Shown: positions 3,119 through 34,923 of the stretch, in pieces
Layout: each line of letters starts with the position of its first letter
How positions within the stretch are numbered: the stretch's first letter is position 1
Virus record (IMG/VR): IMGVR_UViG_3300044691_000371
Coordinates: 1-64,000 of that record
DNA: 64,000 bases
Strand: one strand, 5' to 3'
DNA from: a virus
The notes under the pieces: model-generated
Databases searched by the model: none
What the model was told of the DNA's origin: nothing
What the model saw: only the letters and a program-made list of their open reading frames with translations
Made by a program: the position numbers and the translations under genes

Positions 3119-3913
3119 TTACGAAGTTACAGGATTGAAGACTACCCCTGTCAGTACAGCAGGGTCGTAATTAAAATAACCGCTTCCGAGTGCTACAAAA
3201 TCAGAAAAAGGAACGCTATCTAATGTTGTTCCATCTATAAAAAAGCTTCTCATTCCAGGCACGTTGGTTTGCATGTACTGTTCTAAATCTGTTACGTAAA
3301 ATTCCCCGTTCAATGCAAAAGTATTTTGAAACGTTGTCAAAGCGTTTAATACATTGCTTTGTAAAGTTGGTAAATCGAAACTTGAAAGATAAGTTGCTGT
3401 TGATGTGAAAAATAAAACGTTTCCCGGTACTGAAATTATATTTAATGGCAAATCAAGTATTTCAAAGTTCAACATGTAAGCCTGAAAAGCTGTCAATTGT
3501 GGTGCTGTCAAAGGCGCTAAACCTCCGCTTATTCCGGTCGTTGCAACTTTCAAAAAGAATCCTGATTGTTGAAATGCTGCCTGTGAAATTATCTGTTTTG
3601 TCGTGTCAATAACTGGGTAAATCAAGTTTAAATATGGTGCGCCTGTTACTGGATTTATTGCTTCGTTTATAACTAAGTTATCACCATACTGAAAAGCAAG
3701 TGCAACCCCTGTATAATAAAGTGCTTTTCCGTATCCTTGCTGTGAAATTAAAAGGTTTGTAATTATGCTTTCTGAATTGGCTATTTCGGCAATAACGTTA
3801 TCTAAAACCTGACCAATGGCAATGGCAATTTGTTCATCAATAGCGGTAACGCTTAGATTGGTGAACCCAAGTGCGGCCAAATTATTGTTGATTTGTTGTA
3901 TCGATGAAGCCAT
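3119..3913 (-). CDS. Putative baseplate wedge protein (J-like)
   Basis: ALAFQYGD, LKVA...PLT..QL.AF..Y, NGEF....LE and SGYF motifs resemble Bacteroidota myophage wedge proteins; synteny. Confidence 0.65.
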   Translation of the reverse strand: MASSIQQINNNLAALGFTNLSVTAIDEQIAIAIGQVLDNVIAEIANSESIITNLLISQQGYGKALYYTGVALAFQYGDNLVINEAINPVTGAPYLNLIYPVIDTTKQIISQAAFQQSGFFLKVATTGISGGLAPLTAPQLTAFQAYMLNFEILDLPLNIISVPGNVLFFTSTATYLSSFDLPTLQSNVLNALTTFQNTFALNGEFYVTDLEQYMQTNVPGMRSFFIDGTTLDSVPFSDFVALGSGYFNYDPAVLTGVVFNPVTS

Positions 3914-4293
3914 TAGTTATAATTATTGATTACATCCATTCTTATGTTGACTATCCCTGAAAAGTTTCCGCTTGTCCATGTGAAATAAACCGTTCCTCCT
4001 GCTATAAAATATTGTTGTGCTGTGACTATAATAGTATTCGTTATTACAAGGTCGCTTAATATTTCCTGGCCATTTGGTGTAGTTCCTATCCGTAAAGTCG
4101 GTGCTGATGAGATATTCGTTATAGAAATAGTTGTTACCATAACATTTGCGCTTAAATCCTGTGAAAAGTTTTGGTTTGCATCTACATATTTAAACGGTGG
4201 GTTTATCGTTCCGTACAACTCGAAAAACATGCTGTTAAGCGCGTTACGAACGTTGAGTCCACTTTCTAAATTCGCTATGTATTGAAGTCCCAT
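3913..4293 (-). CDS. Virion structural protein, hypothetical
   Basis: N-terminal ESGLNVRNALNSMFFELY fibre-type motif; LRIGTTPNGQEI. Confidence 0.5.
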   Translation of the reverse strand: MGLQYIANLESGLNVRNALNSMFFELYGTINPPFKYVDANQNFSQDLSANVMVTTISITNISSAPTLRIGTTPNGQEILSDLVITNTIIVTAQQYFIAGGTVYFTWTSGNFSGIVNIRMDVINNYN

Positions 4294-4305
4294 CTATTTC
4301 CCTTT

Positions 4306-4980
4306 CTAATTATCAAGCCACCTGTCGGTATCGATCCATTGGCTTGGATCGTCCAGCCAGTAGCCATACCGCAATATCCATAAGTCTGCCCCGCTAAGTT
4401 GTTCAAAAATAGCATTTATTTGTTCATAAATATCCGCAATAGAAAAATTGTTAGCTGGATAGCTGTTTAAGGCTCTGAAATTGTTTAAGTTAAGGTTGGC
4501 TGATGATGGTATTGCAACCTTTTGACCTGCATATAAGGTCGGTGTCCAGTCATTAAAACTATTTGCGTCAAGTATGCTTCCCCAATTTTGAATATCACCT
4601 GTTGAGTTCATTACTACATCTCCAATTGTGGAAAGTGGCGTAACTATAAAATATGTATTTGTATCAATCGTTGGTAAACTTGCAATCGGTGTATCAACTG
4701 GAATGGCATTTTCTAATAGTAAAAATATTGCGTTTATCTGATCGTATATGTCCGGTATTGAATAGTTATTAGCAGGGTATTGAACTAAATCAGCAATGTT
4801 TCCAACGTTGGTATCAGTGCTTACTGGTATCTGTAAAACTTGGCCGTTGTAAAGTGTAGGTGTCCAGTCTGATAAAAAGTTGACGTTAAGGCAATCAGAC
4901 CAGTTTGTCGAGGTAATTAAACCGCAATTGTTGAGTACAAAATCCCCAAATGTTTCCCCAGCACGAATTTGATATTGCAC
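4306..4980 (-). CDS. Tandem LysM/tail-X-like baseplate protein
   Basis: Two ~100-aa internal repeats (Y.I..G.T.GD.V.N...NW...L..N...DWTPTLY.GQ...IP). Confidence 0.6.
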   Translation of the reverse strand: MQYQIRAGETFGDFVLNNCGLITSTNWSDCLNVNFLSDWTPTLYNGQVLQIPVSTDTNVGNIADLVQYPANNYSIPDIYDQINAIFLLLENAIPVDTPIASLPTIDTNTYFIVTPLSTIGDVVMNSTGDIQNWGSILDANSFNDWTPTLYAGQKVAIPSSANLNLNNFRALNSYPANNFSIADIYEQINAIFEQLSGADLWILRYGYWLDDPSQWIDTDRWLDN

Positions 4981-30398: not shown

Positions 30399-32840
30399 CT
30401 ATCCAAGTTTTGGTTTTACTCTTTGGGTTTTAGTTGTGCCTCCTGCTTGCGGTAATCCACGTCTGCGTTGTAGAAATTGCGTATATTCATCTTTCAATGC
30501 TGTTGTGATAAAGTAGCGGCTACAGTTATGTACTAAAATTCCATTTGCAAAAAATTCGTGTTCATCTTCAATTTCCAAATCGTAAACGTTTTTTACATTC
30601 TTTTGAGCATGTTTTTGTTGGGGCGTATTTATACACTGTAAATTCATTGTTGCAAATTGCGCATATTCTTTGTGTGTTTTCAAGTCCCAATTTCCGCCTG
30701 TATGCTGATTTGCAATTGTTAGAGCAAAAACGTTGTTCGATTGTTTTTTTTGTAAATTCCTTATTGCATACTTCGCAATTATATTGTCCATATGTAAGAT
30801 GTCCAAACCCGATATTTTTTGCATGTTGTTTACACCTTTCCCTCTCTGCTTCACTTCGTTCTCGTTTAGCTGCTGCTGGAATTGCTTTTTCGAGAAGATT
30901 TTTAAGCATTTTTGCTTTTTGTTCATCAGTCCATTCTTTACTATGGTCTGACATGTGCTGGCTTTTGGTTTTAAGCTCAAAATTGCTTGTTTCGTTATTT
31001 TCAGGATTGTGATCAATGTGGTGAACAACGTACCCTTTAGGTATTTCCCCGACTTCGCATTCGTATTTATAAACATGTAATCTTGTTTTTCTCCAATTTC
31101 CTTTACTGATTTTAACCCATCCTGAATAATATGGTTGGTCTCTTTTAGTTCCTGTGTACTTAATAAATCTAAATCCGTTATAGGTGATAATTTCTTTTCG
31201 CATACTAAATTATTTTCATCTAAAATACAAAAAGTACCGCAAACAATCAAATATATTTCTATAAAATCTTTTTCCTTAGTGTAAAATTTATGTTCTGGTG
31301 TGCATGTTACTTTAACATCACCTATTTGATATTCTTTAACCTGTCTATATCCATTATTCCAAACATTTAAAACTTTTTTATATCCATTTCTTGTCAAAAC
31401 ATTTTCACCTATTTTAATTTCATCAATTCTTTTATTTCCATTATCGGTCATTATAAAAGTTTCCCCGACAAAACAAGATAACATATGTCCGTACTTCTCA
31501 TAAGTTATACCTGTTTGTTTATCGGTTACTTTTTTAATAATGATTCCACCGTCTACATCTTCCGGCACCATTAAATAATCTTCAATCGATTTGTAACAAG
31601 TTTTATTTATAAAAATCTTCCATCCTAAATATTGCGTTTCTAAAATTTCGTTTATAAATGCCCCGCTTTGCGTTATACTTGGTGCTGACTTTCCAACTCT
31701 ATCAACAACTTTAAATCCTGCATTTTCTAAAACTCCTATGAATTTATCAAAAAATGATCTTCCATTATCATCTGTTGTTGATCTTGCGTTTGCAGATGGA
31801 TCGCCAAATACATTTATAATATCGTTATAATCTTCACGATCTAAATATTTAACTAATTCCATTGCTGCTTTTGCTGCTGTATTGTTTGGTGCAATACATG
31901 GTAATTCACCAATTTGTAATAATGCTTTCCCAACTTTATCAATCATCCAAAGTTGAACTGATACGTATGGGCTAACGTTATTGTCACAACTTACACAATA
32001 AGTAAATCCACGCTGTTTTAGCCCCGGTATTAAGTTAAAATCTATTGTGTGAAGGTTTGTATCAAAACATTTATAAAACGGATTTCCAGGCTTTCTAAAC
32101 CCCCAATTCCCAAGCGTAAACACATTGTAGTAATATGCGTTATTTTTTGATGTTCGATAACTCTCATATAATGCAATACGTTCGTCACTACAGTAAGGAT
32201 TATCTTTATACGTGCCATGGGTTGATCTTACCTTAAATTCTATTTTCCCTTTTGGTGTATCAATTTCGCGTACCCATTTAAAGTTTTTTTCTTCTGTATG
32301 TGAAAACCAATCCTGCCATAGCCAAAAATCAGTATAAGTAACGTCACATTCAGGATTAAAACTAAAATATGTTTTTACTTTTCCTTCGTTTGAACGCAAA
32401 GAGGTTAATATTACTATAAAATCATCCGCTGTTATCTGATTTGCTTCTTCTAACCATGCCCATGATGGATTCGCAAATGATTTTATTTTCTGAACGTCAT
32501 CTAATCCCCTGCCATAAAACGCCCCGCCATTGATACATTTAATTTCTAATGGTGAAGTTGTGAATTTAAAAAATTGTTGCAATCCCCAATTTTCAACTAC
32601 AATTTTAATCATCCCAACCATTGATTCAGAAACTGTATTATAGGTTTTCCTTATTAATAGCCCGCGAAATTTAGGATTAGACATACATTCGATTATGCCC
32701 ATTTGTGCTATCTGTCTCGTTTTGCCATTATCCCTGCCTCCCCAGAGGAAGTCAATATCAAAAACTTCTGGGTCATCGATTAAATGGTGGTAACATGGAA
32801 GGAACTTATCGCGACTGACTGTTATGTTTATTTCTGACAT
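30399..32840 (-). CDS. terL: Terminase large subunit containing an intein
   Basis: Walker A GGRDNGKT, Walker B WLEEA, SFNP, TYKDNPY, RNase H-like C-terminal domain. Predicted 496 aa after splicing. Confidence 0.92.
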   Translation of the reverse strand: MSEINITVSRDKFLPCYHHLIDDPEVFDIDFLWGGRDNGKTRQIAQMGIIECMSNPKFRGLLIRKTYNTVSESMVGMIKIVVENWGLQQFFKFTTSPLEIKCINGGAFYGRGLDDVQKIKSFANPSWAWLEEANQITADDFIVILTSLRSNEGKVKTYFSFNPECDVTYTDFWLWQDWFSHTEEKNFKWVREIDTPKGKIEFKVRSTHGTYKDNPYCSDERIALYESYRTSKNNAYYYNVFTLGNWGFRKPGNPFYKCFDTNLHTIDFNLIPGLKQRGFTYCVSCDNNVSPYVSVQLWMIDKVGKALLQIGELPCIAPNNTAAKAAMELVKYLDREDYNDIINVFGDPSANARSTTDDNGRSFFDKFIGVLENAGFKVVDRVGKSAPSITQSGAFINEILETQYLGWKIFINKTCYKSIEDYLMVPEDVDGGIIIKKVTDKQTGITYEKYGHMLSCFVGETFIMTDNGNKRIDEIKIGENVLTRNGYKKVLNVWNNGYRQVKEYQIGDVKVTCTPEHKFYTKEKDFIEIYLIVCGTFCILDENNLVCEKKLSPITDLDLLSTQELKETNHIIQDGLKSVKEIGEKQDYMFINTNAKSGKYLKGTLFTTLITILKITKQAILSLKPKASTCQTIVKNGLMNKKQKCLKIFSKKQFQQQLNENEVKQRGKGVNNMQKISGLDILHMDNIIAKYAIRNLQKKQSNNVFALTIANQHTGGNWDLKTHKEYAQFATMNLQCINTPQQKHAQKNVKNVYDLEIEDEHEFFANGILVHNCSRYFITTALKDEYTQFLQRRRGLPQAGGTTKTQRVKPKLG
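30525..31475 (-). mobile_element. Intein (317 aa, TerL residues 456-772)
   Basis: Block A CFVGETFIMT, block B CTPEHKFYT, blocks F/G VYDLEIEDEHEFFANGILVHN, followed by Cys+1. Confidence 0.95.
30568..31203 (-). CDS. HNH endonuclease with zinc-finger repeats, nested out of frame inside the intein
   Basis: RLHVY.Y....GEIPKGYVVHHIDHNPENN..SNF......H...H; CEVC, FCSNNC, CAIC, TCSKEC. Frame differs from TerL (offset 1637 nt). Confidence 0.9.
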   Translation of the reverse strand: MRKEIITYNGFRFIKYTGTKRDQPYYSGWVKISKGNWRKTRLHVYKYECEVGEIPKGYVVHHIDHNPENNETSNFELKTKSQHMSDHSKEWTDEQKAKMLKNLLEKAIPAAAKRERSEAERERCKQHAKNIGFGHLTYGQYNCEVCNKEFTKKTIEQRFCSNNCKSAYRRKLGLENTQRICAICNNEFTVYKYAPTKTCSKECKKRLRFGN

Positions 32841-32856
32841 AGAAAATCAAAAATAC

Positions 32857-32888
32857 AAAAAAAGGCAATCATTATTATTGACTGCCTT
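32857..32888 (-). terminator. Intrinsic terminator after Ro60 gene
   Basis: AAGGCAGTCA-N6-TGATTGCCTT-type hairpin followed by a T run. Confidence 0.75.
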
Positions 32889-32912: not shown

Positions 32913-34364
32913 TTAGAACGTTACCGCCTTTATTTCGTTGATTAACGCTTGTTTGTCGGTCTCTAACATCGCCATGGTTTGGAATATTTTGTCGCTGAAA
33001 CCGGCTAAACAAAATACTTTACTTTCAGGAAATTGCATTGTGCCTAATCCAGCAAGATCAAACGAATATATGAATGGATTTGCGCCAAATTTTTTATTGT
33101 ACTCTGATAATGGCACTTTAGGTGAATAGTAACCAATCCATCCTTGCATATCGCTAAAGATTAAAACACGTTCATATTTTTTATTAGCGTTTTTAAATAT
33201 GGAATGAAAGTTCGTTCCGTGTCCAACTTTGTTTTGACGTGTAAAATTAGCTGCGAAATCCATTGAATGTTGCGATAACTGATAATGAATGTAACGTGCA
33301 AAGTCTCCAAATTCCATTATATCAGCATTAATTGCCTTTGCTAAAACTATCCCAAACAAAGCCCCTAATTCCGATTTTTTCATGTGCTTTGAGTTTGAAA
33401 CTAAGCTATCCATCGACCCGGAATTGTCAACTGCAACTAATGTATTGCCGTCAAAGTTCAGCGTTTTAATGTTATTACAGCTTATATCGACCGCCTCACT
33501 TAATGCCTGTGTTATTTGACGTGCTTCTTTAGTGCCCAATGCTGAAAACTGTTTGTAAGCTATCAAATATTGAAACGGAAATATCAGCGACTTTTTAATG
33601 AACGATTCGCTTGTCAATGATGCCAATGCCTCTGTTAAAACTTCCGGTGCTTGTGTCATGATGTTTGACAGGTTACGAAGCAAAGCCAAATAACCTATTT
33701 TCTTTTCACGTACAAGGTTAATCCAAACTTCTTTTTTGGCGTTCTCAACATTATCACTTTGCCCCGCTGCTGTTAAACCTGATTCCCACGTATCAACTGA
33801 TTTCAGCGTACCGTTTACTAATGCCTTAATTGCTTCGGCGTTTTTTTCAACTGGTGTAGGGTGAACGATATTAACAACGTCAACAAGTTTTATTGCGTTC
33901 TTTTCGCCGCGGTATTTTGCCAGCTGGTATCCATCAAACTTTTCAAACGCCAATGCAAAGCCGCCTTTCATAGCGTTGGTTACTTTCCCGTTGTTGGCTT
34001 TGTGGTACGACAAAATTTCTGTCATATCATCCGGCCTGTAAATAACTGCATTGTAAAAAGCCTTTGCCCAATCATAGCCGCCGACCTGTATAGCTAATTC
34101 AGATGCAGCAACGTGGCTGATCGAACGCATACCGTATTTTGTACGTGCGTAAACGGCGGCTTGTGCAACGAATTTAGGATTGCATTGAGTAATTAAAGTT
34201 TTCAATCTCGTTAATGTATCGTTTGATTTTTCGTAAAATCCATCGCTTACAAATGAAGTAAGCAATATTGATACTAACTCTAATTCGGCAGATTGCTTGT
34301 GTGATTGCCCACCTGCTTTGTTTTCTACAAGTGCTGTAGATTCTGTTTTTGTGTTAAACTTCAT
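32913..34364 (-). CDS. Ro60/Rsr-like TROVE + vWA RNA-binding protein
   Basis: N-terminal N.AGG, YAR...MRS, FD.YQLAKY, TWE..L, YLALLRNL, FPFQY, vWA MIDAS DNSGSM, GT, SDMQ, GFSDK. Confidence 0.92.
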   Translation of the reverse strand: MKFNTKTESTALVENKAGGQSHKQSAELELVSILLTSFVSDGFYEKSNDTLTRLKTLITQCNPKFVAQAAVYARTKYGMRSISHVAASELAIQVGGYDWAKAFYNAVIYRPDDMTEILSYHKANNGKVTNAMKGGFALAFEKFDGYQLAKYRGEKNAIKLVDVVNIVHPTPVEKNAEAIKALVNGTLKSVDTWESGLTAAGQSDNVENAKKEVWINLVREKKIGYLALLRNLSNIMTQAPEVLTEALASLTSESFIKKSLIFPFQYLIAYKQFSALGTKEARQITQALSEAVDISCNNIKTLNFDGNTLVAVDNSGSMDSLVSNSKHMKKSELGALFGIVLAKAINADIMEFGDFARYIHYQLSQHSMDFAANFTRQNKVGHGTNFHSIFKNANKKYERVLIFSDMQGWIGYYSPKVPLSEYNKKFGANPFIYSFDLAGLGTMQFPESKVFCLAGFSDKIFQTMAMLETDKQALINEIKAVTF

Positions 34365-34394
34365 GATTATTTGATTTTAAAATTTGTTTAAAAT

Positions 34395-34430
34395 AAAAAA
34401 GGCAGTCACTTTTTAGATGTACTGCCTTTA
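34395..34430 (-). terminator. Intrinsic terminator between RNA array and Ro60 gene
   Basis: AAAGGCAGT-N14-ACTGCCTTTTTT. Confidence 0.75.
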
Positions 34431-34436
34431 AATGTT

Positions 34437-34520
34437 ATTGACAAAGAAAATTCAAGAGGGTTTACTGGGTTTCCCCACGAGTTAGAAAGTCGATGTAGCC
34501 CACTTATAACTATTGTCAAT
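34437..34520 (-). ncRNA. Y-RNA-like unit D (84 nt)
   Basis: AUUGACAA UAGUUA UAAG UGGGC UACAUCG [insert with GGG-GAAA-CCC hairpin] AA ACCC UCUUG AAUUUUCU UUGUCAAU. Confidence 0.75.
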
Positions 34521-34524
34521 GTCA

Positions 34525-34597
34525 TTCAGGAGAAAATTGCGGCACGGTATTTTTTTGCATTTTCGAAGCGAAGTAACCGTATTGCTAACTACCTGAA
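34525..34597 (-). ncRNA. Y-RNA-like unit C (73 nt)
   Basis: UUCAGG UAGUUA GCAAU ACGGU UACUUCG [12 nt] AAAAAAAU ACCGU GCCGC AAUUUUCU CCUGAA. Confidence 0.78.
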
Positions 34598-34603
34598 ATA
34601 TTT

Positions 34604-34744
34604 ATTGTTGGAGAAAGGCTAAAAGAGTATTTTTTCTGTCCTGGGTACTACCACTATACTATACCCGAATTAATCGGATAAGAAGATTCGAACTCCTGTC
34701 ACAGGTTTGGTATCGAAGTAACTCTAATTATAACTACCAACAAT
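34604..34744 (-). ncRNA. YrlA-like Y RNA (unit B, 141 nt) with circularly permuted tRNA-like domain
   Basis: Same scaffold plus 34640-34705: CCUG UGAC, T arm AGGAG-UUCGAAU-CUUCU, closed acceptor stem UAUCCGA-UUAAU-UCGGGUA, UA, D arm GUAU-AGUGGUA-GUAC, C, CAGG. Confidence 0.85.
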
Positions 34745-34749
34745 GATTC

Positions 34750-34818
34750 TGTAAGGGAAAGTTTTGATCGCGTGTTTTTTCATTTACATCGAAGTAACGC
34801 ATTCAATAGCCACTTACA
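34750..34818 (-). ncRNA. Y-RNA-like unit A (69 nt)
   Basis: UGUAAG UGGCUA UUGA AUGCGU UACUUCG [9 nt] AAAAAAC ACGCG AUCAA AACUUUCC CUUACA. Confidence 0.75.
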
Positions 34819-34860
34819 AATTTTTATATCTTATCAAAGAACTATGCCCTAAATCGTTTT

Positions 34861-34893
34861 CAAATATAAAAACTTTTATCATTACAAAACAAA
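34861..34893 (-). promoter_or_regulatory. Promoter of RNA array / Ro60 operon
   Basis: TTTG-21 nt-TATATTTG, 42 nt upstream of unit A. Confidence 0.65.
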
Positions 34894-34923
34894 TTTATTT
34901 TAAAATATTTTTACTTTTGTTTA

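What the first reader, a model, noticed from the sequence alone, without database searches (positions are those of the whole stretch)
32913..34893. Phage Ro60 operon with a tandem array of four modular Y-RNA-like genes
Seen: one promoter (34861-34893) precedes four hairpin units of 69, 141, 73 and 84 nt spaced 4-6 nt apart, then a terminator and a full TROVE-vWA gene. The closing stems differ in sequence but stay paired (UGUAAG/CUUACA, AUUGUUGG/CCAACAAU, UUCAGG/CCUGAA, AUUGACAA/UUGUCAAU). The motifs U(A/G)G(U/C)UA, G(U/C)UAC(U/A)UCG, an A-run and A(A/G)YYUUCY are conserved. Each unit carries a different apical insert at the same position. Established: Ro60/Rsr binds Y RNAs, which tether it to partners such as PNPase, and YrlA RNAs mimic tRNA. 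The canonical bulged-C Ro site (GGUCCGA/UUGAC) is not visible here. Inference: a distinct Y-RNA class with a constant Ro-binding scaffold and exchangeable payloads, letting one phage protein form four RNPs, for example as decoys for host tRNA-cleaving defences or adaptors to host RNases.
Basis: partly seen in the sequence, partly recalled or inferred. Interest (0 to 1): 0.92.

Follow-up and report, generated by a model that had tools for sequence, protein, structure and literature searches.

The report
Phage Ro60 with four Y RNAs
An uncultured soil phage of a Bacteroidota-type host encodes the ring-shaped RNA-binding protein Ro60 and, just upstream, four small partner RNAs (Y RNAs) that share one docking "handle" but have different heads, one of them a tRNA look-alike. 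It is a real but uncatalogued lineage version of a known particle.

Summary
Four hairpin units of 69, 141, 73 and 84 nt lie on the minus strand. Before them is a Bacteroidota-type promoter; after them a terminator hairpin and a genuine TROVE-vWA (Ro60) gene.

A covariance model built only from other phages and MAGs finds exactly these four units in the 64-kb window. Both scaffold helices covary strongly.

The same handle lies beside TROVE genes in IMG/VR contigs, Bacteroidota and Chloroflexota MAGs, and crAss-like phages. It was found nowhere else in whole genomes. In a motif-only retrieval of 80 viral loci, the 6 with a model hit were exactly the 6 with TROVE.

Unit 2 is a YrlA-type circularly permuted tRNA mimic. 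Units 1, 3 and 4 are short, YrlB-like.

No unit reaches Rfam's YrlA threshold. Relatives score 35-38 bits against a cut-off of 69.

Verdict: bona fide bacterial-type Y RNAs with a lineage-specific handle, a new variant of a known kind. Expression, Ro60 binding and the decoy idea are untested. This scan has met similar arrays on other DNA.

The parts
34861..34893 (-). Bacteroidota-type promoter (TTTG, 21 nt, TATATTTG)
   Evidence: Sequence read. The pattern TTTG-N19-21-TAnnTTTG has 10 matches in the window against 3.5 expected, mostly before genes on the minus strand. Relatives carry TAnnTTTG at the equivalent place. Its function as a promoter is inferred.
34819..34860 (-). Leader of about 40 nt before the first unit
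   Evidence: It contains AGTTCTTTGA, which in relatives L002, L004, L005 and L015 is the 3' end of a small ORF lying between promoter and array.
34750..34818 (-). Y RNA unit 1: short YrlB-like unit with an A-rich single-stranded head; the only window unit with GG:CC after the bulge
   Evidence: Fold. R3, built without the window, scores 45.2 bits, E = 8.6e-8. Positional orthologue L001:1920-1991 is 82% identical. Bulged helix shown.
34604..34744 (-). Y RNA unit 2: YrlA-type, handle plus a circularly permuted tRNA mimic. Order is CCUG closing helix, T arm with loop UUCGAAU, a 7-bp closed acceptor stem, UA, D arm with AGUGGUA, then CAGG; about 34705-34640
   Evidence: RNAalifold on 9 homologues predicts the handle plus T, acceptor and D arms, with compensatory changes in 26 of 31 pairs. 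Model R2, built only from relatives, hits it at 79.8 bits, E = 5e-15, over its full length. R3 gives 37 bits. No Rfam YrlA hit at E <= 10 and no ARAGORN tRNA.
34525..34597 (-). Y RNA unit 3: short YrlB-like unit with an A-rich head
   Evidence: Fold. R3 scores 52.8 bits, E = 1.6e-9. Orthologue L001:2263-2332 is 84% identical.
34437..34520 (-). Y RNA unit 4: the head carries a small G+C-rich hairpin followed by GUAAAC
   Evidence: Fold. R3 scores 40.6 bits, E = 9.6e-7. In orthologue L001:2338-2423 (78% identical) the head hairpin is kept with a different sequence.
34388..34429 (-). Intrinsic-terminator-like hairpin (stem of about 9 bp, 14-nt loop) plus U-run, between the array and the Ro60 start
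   Evidence: Fold energy -13.3 kcal/mol, z = -3.65, 0 of 200 shuffles as stable. A hairpin plus T-run sits at the same place in L001, L002, L004, L006, L012 and L013. The simple scan missed it because its loop exceeds 8 nt.
32913..34364 (-). Ro60 (Rsr) orthologue, 483 aa: TROVE ring plus vWA domain with a MIDAS motif
   Evidence: Pfam TROVE E = 1e-16; vWA_Ro60 at 21.8 bits, below its cut-off of 27.7. phrog_850 'RNA-binding protein' at 1e-38. PDB 9KOP/9L5Y, phiLo Ro60, at 2e-25 over residues 17-476. DNSGS motif seen.
32862..32888 (-). Terminator after the Ro60 gene
   Evidence: 10-bp stem followed by a T-run.

Best explanation
This is a phage copy of the bacterial Ro60/Y-RNA system.

Shown:
- A genuine TROVE-vWA gene is preceded on the same strand by four tandem RNA genes.
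- The four share a covarying handle: stem 1, one bulged pyrimidine, two pairs (R-G with C-Y), an internal loop, stem 2, and the near-invariant G-YUAC-UUC-R motif.
- Each unit carries a different head.
- The handle is found only beside TROVE genes.

Inferred:
- The array is transcribed from the TAnnTTTG promoter as one precursor and cut in the 4-6 nt spacers into four Y RNAs. M. smegmatis YrlA and YrlB are made this way.
- The hairpin and U-run stop most transcripts, so the RNAs outnumber the Ro60 mRNA, which is made by read-through.
- Ro60 docks on the bulged helix of each handle, as Xenopus Ro60 does on the bulged helix of Y RNA.
- The head then decides the partner. The A-rich single-stranded heads of U1 and U3 would tether a host 3'-5' exoribonuclease such as PNPase, as shown for D. 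radiodurans and for Thermus phage phiLo. The L-shaped tRNA mimic of U2 would engage proteins that recognise the tRNA elbow and acceptor arm.
- One protein would thus form up to four particles that redirect host RNA turnover or tRNA-handling enzymes during infection.
For: Protein identity.

Handle structure:
- Plain MAFFT alignments not fitted to any structure give 88% and 86% of cells paired, with compensatory changes in 12 of 15 and 13 of 16 pairs. The covariation score is 0.66-0.71 against about 0.26 in shuffles (0 of 500 reach it) and collapses when partners are slid.
- The bulged helix occurs in 29 of 29 units: AG:CU 25 times, GG:CC 3 times.

Leave-out detection: R3 finds U1 to U4 only. 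R2 finds U2 at 5e-15.

YrlA link: L004 units match RF02553 at 38.3 and 34.8 bits with T, acceptor and D arms aligned. Nine homologues fold into the T-acceptor-D order with 26 of 31 pairs covarying.

Linkage:
- 35 of 36 hits at E <= 1 in the window plus 13 viral loci lie on the TROVE strand.
- 22 of 22 do so in MAG loci.
- In three whole MAG genomes of 2.1-7.4 Mb the only hits lie beside TROVE.
- Of 80 viral loci fetched by a motif alone, the 6 with an R3 hit are exactly the 6 that encode TROVE, and none of the other 74 does.

Unit types are older than this phage: each window unit is closest to its positional counterpart in L001 (67-84% identical) rather than to its neighbours (39-70%).

Precedent: Y RNAs lie upstream of rsr on the same strand, are processed from one precursor and mimic tRNA (PMC4201824). 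A phage Ro60 binds two upstream Y-like RNAs and host PNPase (PMC12135203).
Against: - There are no expression or binding data. No RNA run holds the sequence.
- No unit reaches any Rfam model, and the published GNCGAA(N)G motif is degenerate in the window (RG-C/U-U-A).
- The phage has no RtcB, the usual neighbour of rsr in enterobacteria.
- Which conserved element contacts Ro60, the bulged helix or GUUACUUCR, is not known.
- The partners of the heads are pure inference.
- The terminator between array and gene could mean the two are expressed separately.
Confidence: 0.85

Rival explanations
1. The units are cis-acting leader structures of the Ro60 mRNA, for example autoregulatory Ro60 binding sites that control the terminator, and not stable trans-acting RNAs.
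For: The units share a transcription unit with the gene. A conserved terminator hairpin lies between array and gene, and no separate promoter for the gene is visible.
Against: In crAss001, L011, L008 and L051 the units lie downstream of TROVE. In L070 and L109 they lie 1-5 kb upstream. Distinct head types, including a full tRNA mimic, are conserved between phages, which a simple attenuator does not need. Known Y RNAs are cut out of just such precursors (PMC4201824). Autoregulation could exist alongside the Y-RNA role.
Confidence: 0.06
2. The array is a degenerate or unusual tRNA-gene cluster. The shared stems would be processing scaffolds for tRNA-like genes, unrelated to Ro60.
For: Unit 2 has T and D arms. 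In relatives, true or tRNA-scoring cloverleaves sit inside or between units.
Against: U1, U3 and U4 have no tRNA features. U2 is permuted, with a closed acceptor stem and no anticodon arm. The handle is found only beside TROVE genes.
Confidence: 0.03
3. The units are real small RNAs with a conserved handle, but the handle is bound by another factor, host or phage, and Ro60 is only a genomic neighbour.
For: Binding is untested, and the handle sequence differs from published Ro sites.
Against: Handle and TROVE co-occur strictly across proteins of 30-88% identity in phages and bacteria. The helix, bulge, 2 bp and internal loop follow the plan of the Ro site of metazoan Y RNAs (my own knowledge of hY1 and the Xenopus Y3-Ro structure). 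No other gene is constantly adjacent.
Confidence: 0.05

Closest known systems
YrlA and YrlB Y RNAs with Rsr/Ro60 of Salmonella, M. smegmatis and mycobacteriophages (Chen et al. 2014, PMC4201824; Rfam RF02553)
   Same: They are encoded next to Ro60 on the same strand, with several Y RNAs per locus made from one precursor. The plan is the same: terminal stem, internal loop, second stem, YUAY, then the head. Unit 2 has the YrlA order of closing helix, T arm, closed acceptor stem and D arm, with the GG of the D loop and a UUCGAAU T loop. Short units without a tRNA domain correspond to YrlB.
   Different: The handle sequence is lineage-specific: a bulged pyrimidine plus RG:CY, RG-Y-N-A in place of GNCGAA, and an almost invariant GUUACUUCR. 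RF02553 gives no hit in the window and only 35-38 bits (cut-off 69) in relatives. Here there are four units in tandem, five in L001. The hosts are Bacteroidota-type, and no RtcB is linked.
Thermus phage phiLo Ro60 with Yrl1 and Yrl2 (PMC12135203; PDB 9KOP, 9L5Y)
   Same: It is a phage-encoded Ro60 and the best structural-database match to this protein (E = 2e-25). It has Y-like RNAs directly upstream of the gene, for which binding to the protein and to host PNPase was shown in vitro.
   Different: phiLo has two RNAs defined by a CGAA motif in a large bulge, and no tRNA mimic was reported. I did not compare the handles, because the phiLo RNA sequences were not fetched.
Metazoan Y RNAs (Rfam RF00019) and their Ro60 site
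   Same: The 5' and 3' ends pair into a stem that holds a single bulged pyrimidine, followed by two pairs and an internal loop. The head is variable.
   Different: There is no GGUCCGA/UUGAC sequence and no Rfam hit. The units are transcribed as an array by a bacterial-type promoter, not as single Pol III genes.
D. radiodurans Yrn1 and the Rsr-Y RNA-PNPase (RYPER) complex
   Same: It is the model for how a Y RNA head tethers Ro60 to an exoribonuclease. Its tRNA-like elements are in D-then-T order, as in the cloverleaf heads of csAssE-Sib.
   Different: No sequence relation was detected. Tethering of PNPase by the window's units is only inferred.

Membership tests
YrlA (RF02553), for unit 2 | Encoded within 4 kb of a Ro60 orthologue on the same strand | tested here: met
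   U2 ends 240 nt upstream of the TROVE start, on the same strand.
YrlA (RF02553), for unit 2 | tRNA-like domain in the order T arm, closed acceptor-like stem, D arm, enclosed by a helix | tested here: met
   RNAalifold on 9 homologues shows compensatory changes in 26 of 31 pairs. The leave-out model R2 scores 79.8 bits, E = 5e-15, with all arms aligned.
YrlA (RF02553), for unit 2 | Nucleotides for tRNA tertiary contacts: GG in the D loop, a UUCRANY-type T loop, and U-A between the acceptor and D stems | tested here: met
   Read directly from the sequence: AGUGGUA, UUCGAAU and UA.
YrlA (RF02553), for unit 2 | GNCGAA(N)G motif near the 5' end | tested here: not met
   The window units have GGCUAU or AGUUA(U/G). 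Relatives have GGCGAU or AGCGAA at the same position.
YrlA (RF02553), for unit 2 | Score at or above the Rfam gathering threshold of 69 bits | tested here: not met
   No hit at gathering or at E <= 10 in the window. Homologous units in L004 reach 38.3 and 34.8 bits. None of 31 related loci passes.
Y RNA in the functional sense, for all four units | Terminal stem formed by the 5' and 3' ends, containing a bulged helix next to an internal loop, with a variable head beyond | tested here: met
Y RNA in the functional sense, for all four units | Stable small RNA bound by Ro60 | not testable with these tools
   No RNA run holds the stretch. Binding needs EMSA or RIP.
Y RNA in the functional sense, for all four units | Genomic linkage to Ro60 across lineages | tested here: met
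   In the motif-only retrieval, the 6 loci with a model hit are the 6 with TROVE, and 0 of the other 74 have it.
Ro60/Rsr protein | TROVE (HEAT-repeat ring) domain followed by a vWA domain with a MIDAS motif | tested here: met
   TROVE at 61.6 bits against a cut-off of 23. vWA_Ro60 at 21.8 bits, below its cut-off of 27.7, but the alignment to phiLo Ro60 covers the full length (E = 2e-25) and DNSGS is present.
tRNA | Cloverleaf with anticodon arm and free acceptor end | tested here: not met
   ARAGORN finds no tRNA in the window, and there is no Rfam tRNA hit.

The most novel reading that the evidence does not exclude
The handle may be a general Ro60 docking module of Bacteroidota-group bacteria and their phages, including crAss-like gut phages. 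Evolution would plug heads onto it in at least three topologies:
- a YrlA-type permuted tRNA, as in unit 2;
- an intact cloverleaf with an anticodon, as in the units of csAssE-Sib that enclose the annotated tRNA-Tyr(GUA) and tRNA-Lys(UUU);
- an 'inside-out' form with tRNA ends and the handle in place of the anticodon arm, as in crAss001.

Phages would then use arrays of such heads as a plug-in set of decoys or adaptors against host tRNA-targeting defences or RNases.
Probability: 0.25. Interest if true: 0.8.

Novelty: new variant of a known kind. Interest (0 to 1): 0.55.

Why it matters
Ro60/Y-RNA particles are conserved from bacteria to humans, where Ro60 is a lupus and Sjogren autoantigen. 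What the Y RNA heads do, especially the tRNA mimic, is still unclear.

This lineage gives a clean natural experiment: one protein, one handle and several interchangeable heads, each conserved across phages. The handle escapes the Rfam model, so these RNAs are missing from current annotation. In at least one crAss-like phage, parts of them are annotated as ordinary tRNAs.

The same handle occurs beside the early-expressed TROVE gene of crAss001. That phage is cultured and has a tractable Bacteroides host, so binding, processing and function can be tested directly.

Tried and rejected
- Rfam at gathering and at E <= 10: no family matches the array. The weak miRNA and snoRNA hits are noise.
- RF02553 on the whole virus record: none.
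- ARAGORN: no tRNA or tmRNA in the window.
- The sigma-70 promoter scan is not informative for this host type, and its terminator rule misses the 14-nt loop.
- My first stem-finding script was too noisy.
- Sequencing runs: no RNA holder is listed, and only the probable source soil metagenome holds the stretch. Expression could therefore not be examined and read laying was not used.
- RtcB (PF01139) is absent from the virus record.
- Supplementary tables of Chen et al. 2014 are not held and the 2020 Annual Review is not held. I could not check whether Bacteroidota loci were among their 254 species.
- The large head of about 250 nt in L006, L007, L012 and L013 has no Rfam match.
- The 14-base motif scan of IMG/VR returns mostly chance matches (74 of 80). 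It was useful only as an unbiased control.
- Chance repeats, MITE-like or CRISPR-like arrays, and a coding reading (a 55-aa TTG ORF on the opposite strand) were rejected because of the covariation and the TROVE linkage.
Full report
**What is there.**
The window belongs to an 84.8-kb IMG/VR virus record. Only a soil metagenome, probably its source, holds the stretch.

On the minus strand, a 559-nt non-coding stretch (34365-34923) separates a divergent glycosyltransferase-like ORF from a 483-aa gene. The gene is a genuine Ro60/Rsr orthologue:
- Pfam TROVE at E = 1e-16, plus a sub-threshold Ro60-type vWA domain.
- phrog_850 'RNA-binding protein' at 1e-38.
- A full-length match at E = 2e-25 to the solved Ro60 of Thermus phage phiLo.
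- A DNSGS MIDAS motif.

A terminase large subunit with an intein lies downstream.

**The four units.**
They fold the same way alone and within the whole 481-nt transcript.

The promoter at 34893-34861 fits the Bacteroidota consensus TTTG-N21-TAnnTTTG. That pattern is enriched in the window and lies mostly before minus-strand genes. A stable hairpin with a U-run follows the array (z = -3.65), 33 nt before the ATG.

**Is it more than chance?**
GYTACWTCG occurs four times in the window against 0.7 expected, and all four copies are in the array.

I fetched 18 viral contigs encoding relatives of the protein at 44-88% identity. Nearly all carry the same motif 200-560 nt upstream on the same strand.

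Two plain MAFFT alignments of short units, not fitted to any structure, support both helices:
- 88% and 86% of cells are paired.
- 12 of 15 and 13 of 16 pairs show compensatory changes.
- The covariation score is 0.66-0.71 against 0.26 in shuffles (0 of 500 reach it), and it collapses when partners are slid.

Model R3 was built from 18 units of other phages and MAGs, leaving out the window and its closest relative. It finds exactly the four units in 64 kb at E = 1.6e-9 to 6.3e-6; the next hit has E = 0.44.

**The handle.**
Every unit has this plan:
- stem 1 of 4-10 bp;
- one bulged nucleotide, usually U or C;
- two more pairs, R-G with C-Y;
- a short loop reading Y-N-A;
- stem 2 of 5-9 bp, ending in an invariant G-C pair;
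- the near-invariant YUAC-UUC-R motif;
- the head, then an A-rich run;
- the 3' strand of stem 2, a U-rich stretch, C-Y, and the 3' strand of stem 1.

I set the register of stem 1 for each unit and then looked at the two pairs beyond the bulge. They were formed in 29 of 29 units: AG:CU 25 times and GG:CC 3 times. Window unit 1 is a GG:CC case. RNAalifold predicts the same two pairs on its own.

This helix, single pyrimidine bulge, two pairs and internal loop is the plan of the Ro60 site of metazoan Y RNAs (my own knowledge of hY1 and the Xenopus Y3-Ro structure; PMC4201824 and PMC12135203 describe the bulged helix).

In relatives the loop after the bulge reads GGCGAU or AGCGAA, close to the bacterial GNCGAA(N)G motif. 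In the window it has drifted to GGCUAU or AGUUA. The YUAY that starts the variable region of YrlA (PMC4201824) corresponds to the UUAC of the invariant motif.

**The heads.**
Unit 2 is a YrlA-type tRNA mimic:
- a CCUG/CAGG closing helix;
- a 5-bp T arm with loop UUCGAAU;
- a 7-bp acceptor stem closed by a loop;
- UA, then a D arm with AGUGGUA.

Nine homologous units fold into this plan with compensatory changes in 26 of 31 pairs. Two of them (in L004) match Rfam YrlA at 38.3 and 34.8 bits with all arms aligned, below the 69-bit cut-off. Model R2, built only from relatives, hits unit 2 at 79.8 bits, E = 5e-15.

Units 1 and 3 have short A-rich single-stranded heads. Unit 4 has a small G+C-rich hairpin that is kept, with a different sequence, in the closest relative L001.

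Each window unit is most similar to its positional counterpart in L001 (67-84%) and not to its neighbours (39-70%). L001 also has a fifth unit, a second tRNA-like one. The unit types therefore predate these phages, and arrays gain or lose units.

**Linkage to Ro60.**
- In the window plus 13 viral loci, 35 of 36 hits at E <= 1 lie on the TROVE strand. Most are within 600 nt upstream; a few are just downstream.
- In 13 of 15 MAG loci (Cyclobacteriaceae, Chitinophagales, Flavobacterium, Lewinella, Saprospiraceae, Anaerolineaceae, Rhodothermales) 22 of 22 hits are upstream on the same strand.
- Five whole MAG genomes were searched. In three of them (2.1-7.4 Mb) the only hits at E <= 0.01 are those beside TROVE, on contigs of 78-303 kb. 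The other two had none. The handle is thus not phage-specific, although prophages cannot be excluded.
- As an unbiased control I fetched 80 viral loci by a 14-base motif alone. Six have an R3 hit and the same six encode a TROVE homologue on the same strand (30-61% identity). None of the other 74 does.

**Comparison with what is known.**
Chen et al. 2014 (PMC4201824) described the following:
- YrlA-like RNAs near Ro60 in 254 bacteria and 22 phages;
- a second Y RNA (YrlB) in several species;
- processing of both from one precursor;
- tRNA mimicry.

The phiLo study (PMC12135203) showed a phage Ro60 binding two upstream Y-like RNAs and host PNPase. Modularity of Y RNAs is textbook.

What is new here is a lineage-specific handle that the Rfam model does not catch, arrays of four to five units, and head swapping on a constant handle. 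I found no paper describing Y RNAs of Bacteroidota phages or crAss-like phages in the held library. The supplements of the 2014 paper and the 2020 review are not held.

This scan has met similar arrays on other DNA many times, including one note that the same handle occurs in crAss-like phages. I reached the crAss result independently.

**Mechanism and confidence.**
Shown: the gene identity, the RNA family, its structure, and its linkage to TROVE.

Inferred: transcription as one precursor and cutting in the spacers; partial termination before the gene; Ro60 docking on the bulged helix; and head-specific partners (PNPase-type exonucleases for the A-rich heads, tRNA-recognising proteins for unit 2).

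Unit 2 lacks an anticodon loop, so in this phage it cannot act as a decoy for anticodon nucleases. The phage has no RtcB. I put 0.85 on 'Ro60-bound Y RNAs' and much less on any particular partner.

**Verdict.**
This is a real and well-supported feature. It is a new variant of a known kind and not a new class. Interest is moderate, mainly because it opens a cultured system, crAss001, for testing what Y RNA heads do.

Noticed in passing
L036 (phage csAssE-Sib, OR575929.1) 1991-2409: There are three handle units directly upstream of the annotated 'Ro sixty-related protein'. Units 2133-2262 and 2279-2409 enclose the annotated tRNA-Tyr(GUA) and tRNA-Lys(UUU), which ARAGORN and Rfam also call as tRNAs. 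The head here is a non-permuted cloverleaf with an anticodon, its acceptor stem stacked on handle stem 2. They may be mis-annotated Y RNAs, or tRNAs released from a Y-type precursor.
   Followed up: partly
L034 (Bacteroides phage crAss001, MH675552.1) 3899-4803: The 900-nt unannotated gap after TROVE gp96, an early gene according to PMC8375218, holds two normal handle units (3996-4078 and 4090-4166). It also holds two 'inside-out' units at about 4172-4317 and 4424-4567. These run acceptor 5' strand, D arm, then the handle closed by a small loop in place of the anticodon arm, UUACUUC, T arm and acceptor 3' strand. Rfam's tRNA model scores the first at 46.6 bits.
   Followed up: partly
L006:2176-2430, L007:2178-2430, L012:2145-2418, L013:2165-2392: One unit per locus carries a head of 230-275 nt with conserved blocks (GUGAAAAAGYCC and GAGUUUCGGGAGAAUUCUCU) and several covarying hairpins. 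It has no Rfam match and its identity is unknown.
   Followed up: partly
L010:1687-2470: The array has four units with a genuine tRNA-Pro(UGG) at 1938-2014 between units 2 and 3, and a small ORF before the last unit.
   Followed up: no
window 34833-34842; L002, L004, L005 and L015 at about 1890-2050: Relatives have a small ORF of about 50 codons between the promoter and the array. It looks like a ribbon-helix-helix protein by eye, but I ran no search. Its last codons (AGTTCTTTGA) survive as a remnant in the window's leader and in L001.
   Followed up: no
window 30399-32840 (-): The terminase large subunit of 813 aa contains a Hint/intein insertion.
   Followed up: no
L029 (Rhodothermales MAG) 1491-1712 and 2232-2363: A handle unit encloses a partial tRNA-model match (positions 7-64, that is D, anticodon and T arms without an acceptor stem). 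Two further tRNA-model hits lie upstream.
   Followed up: no
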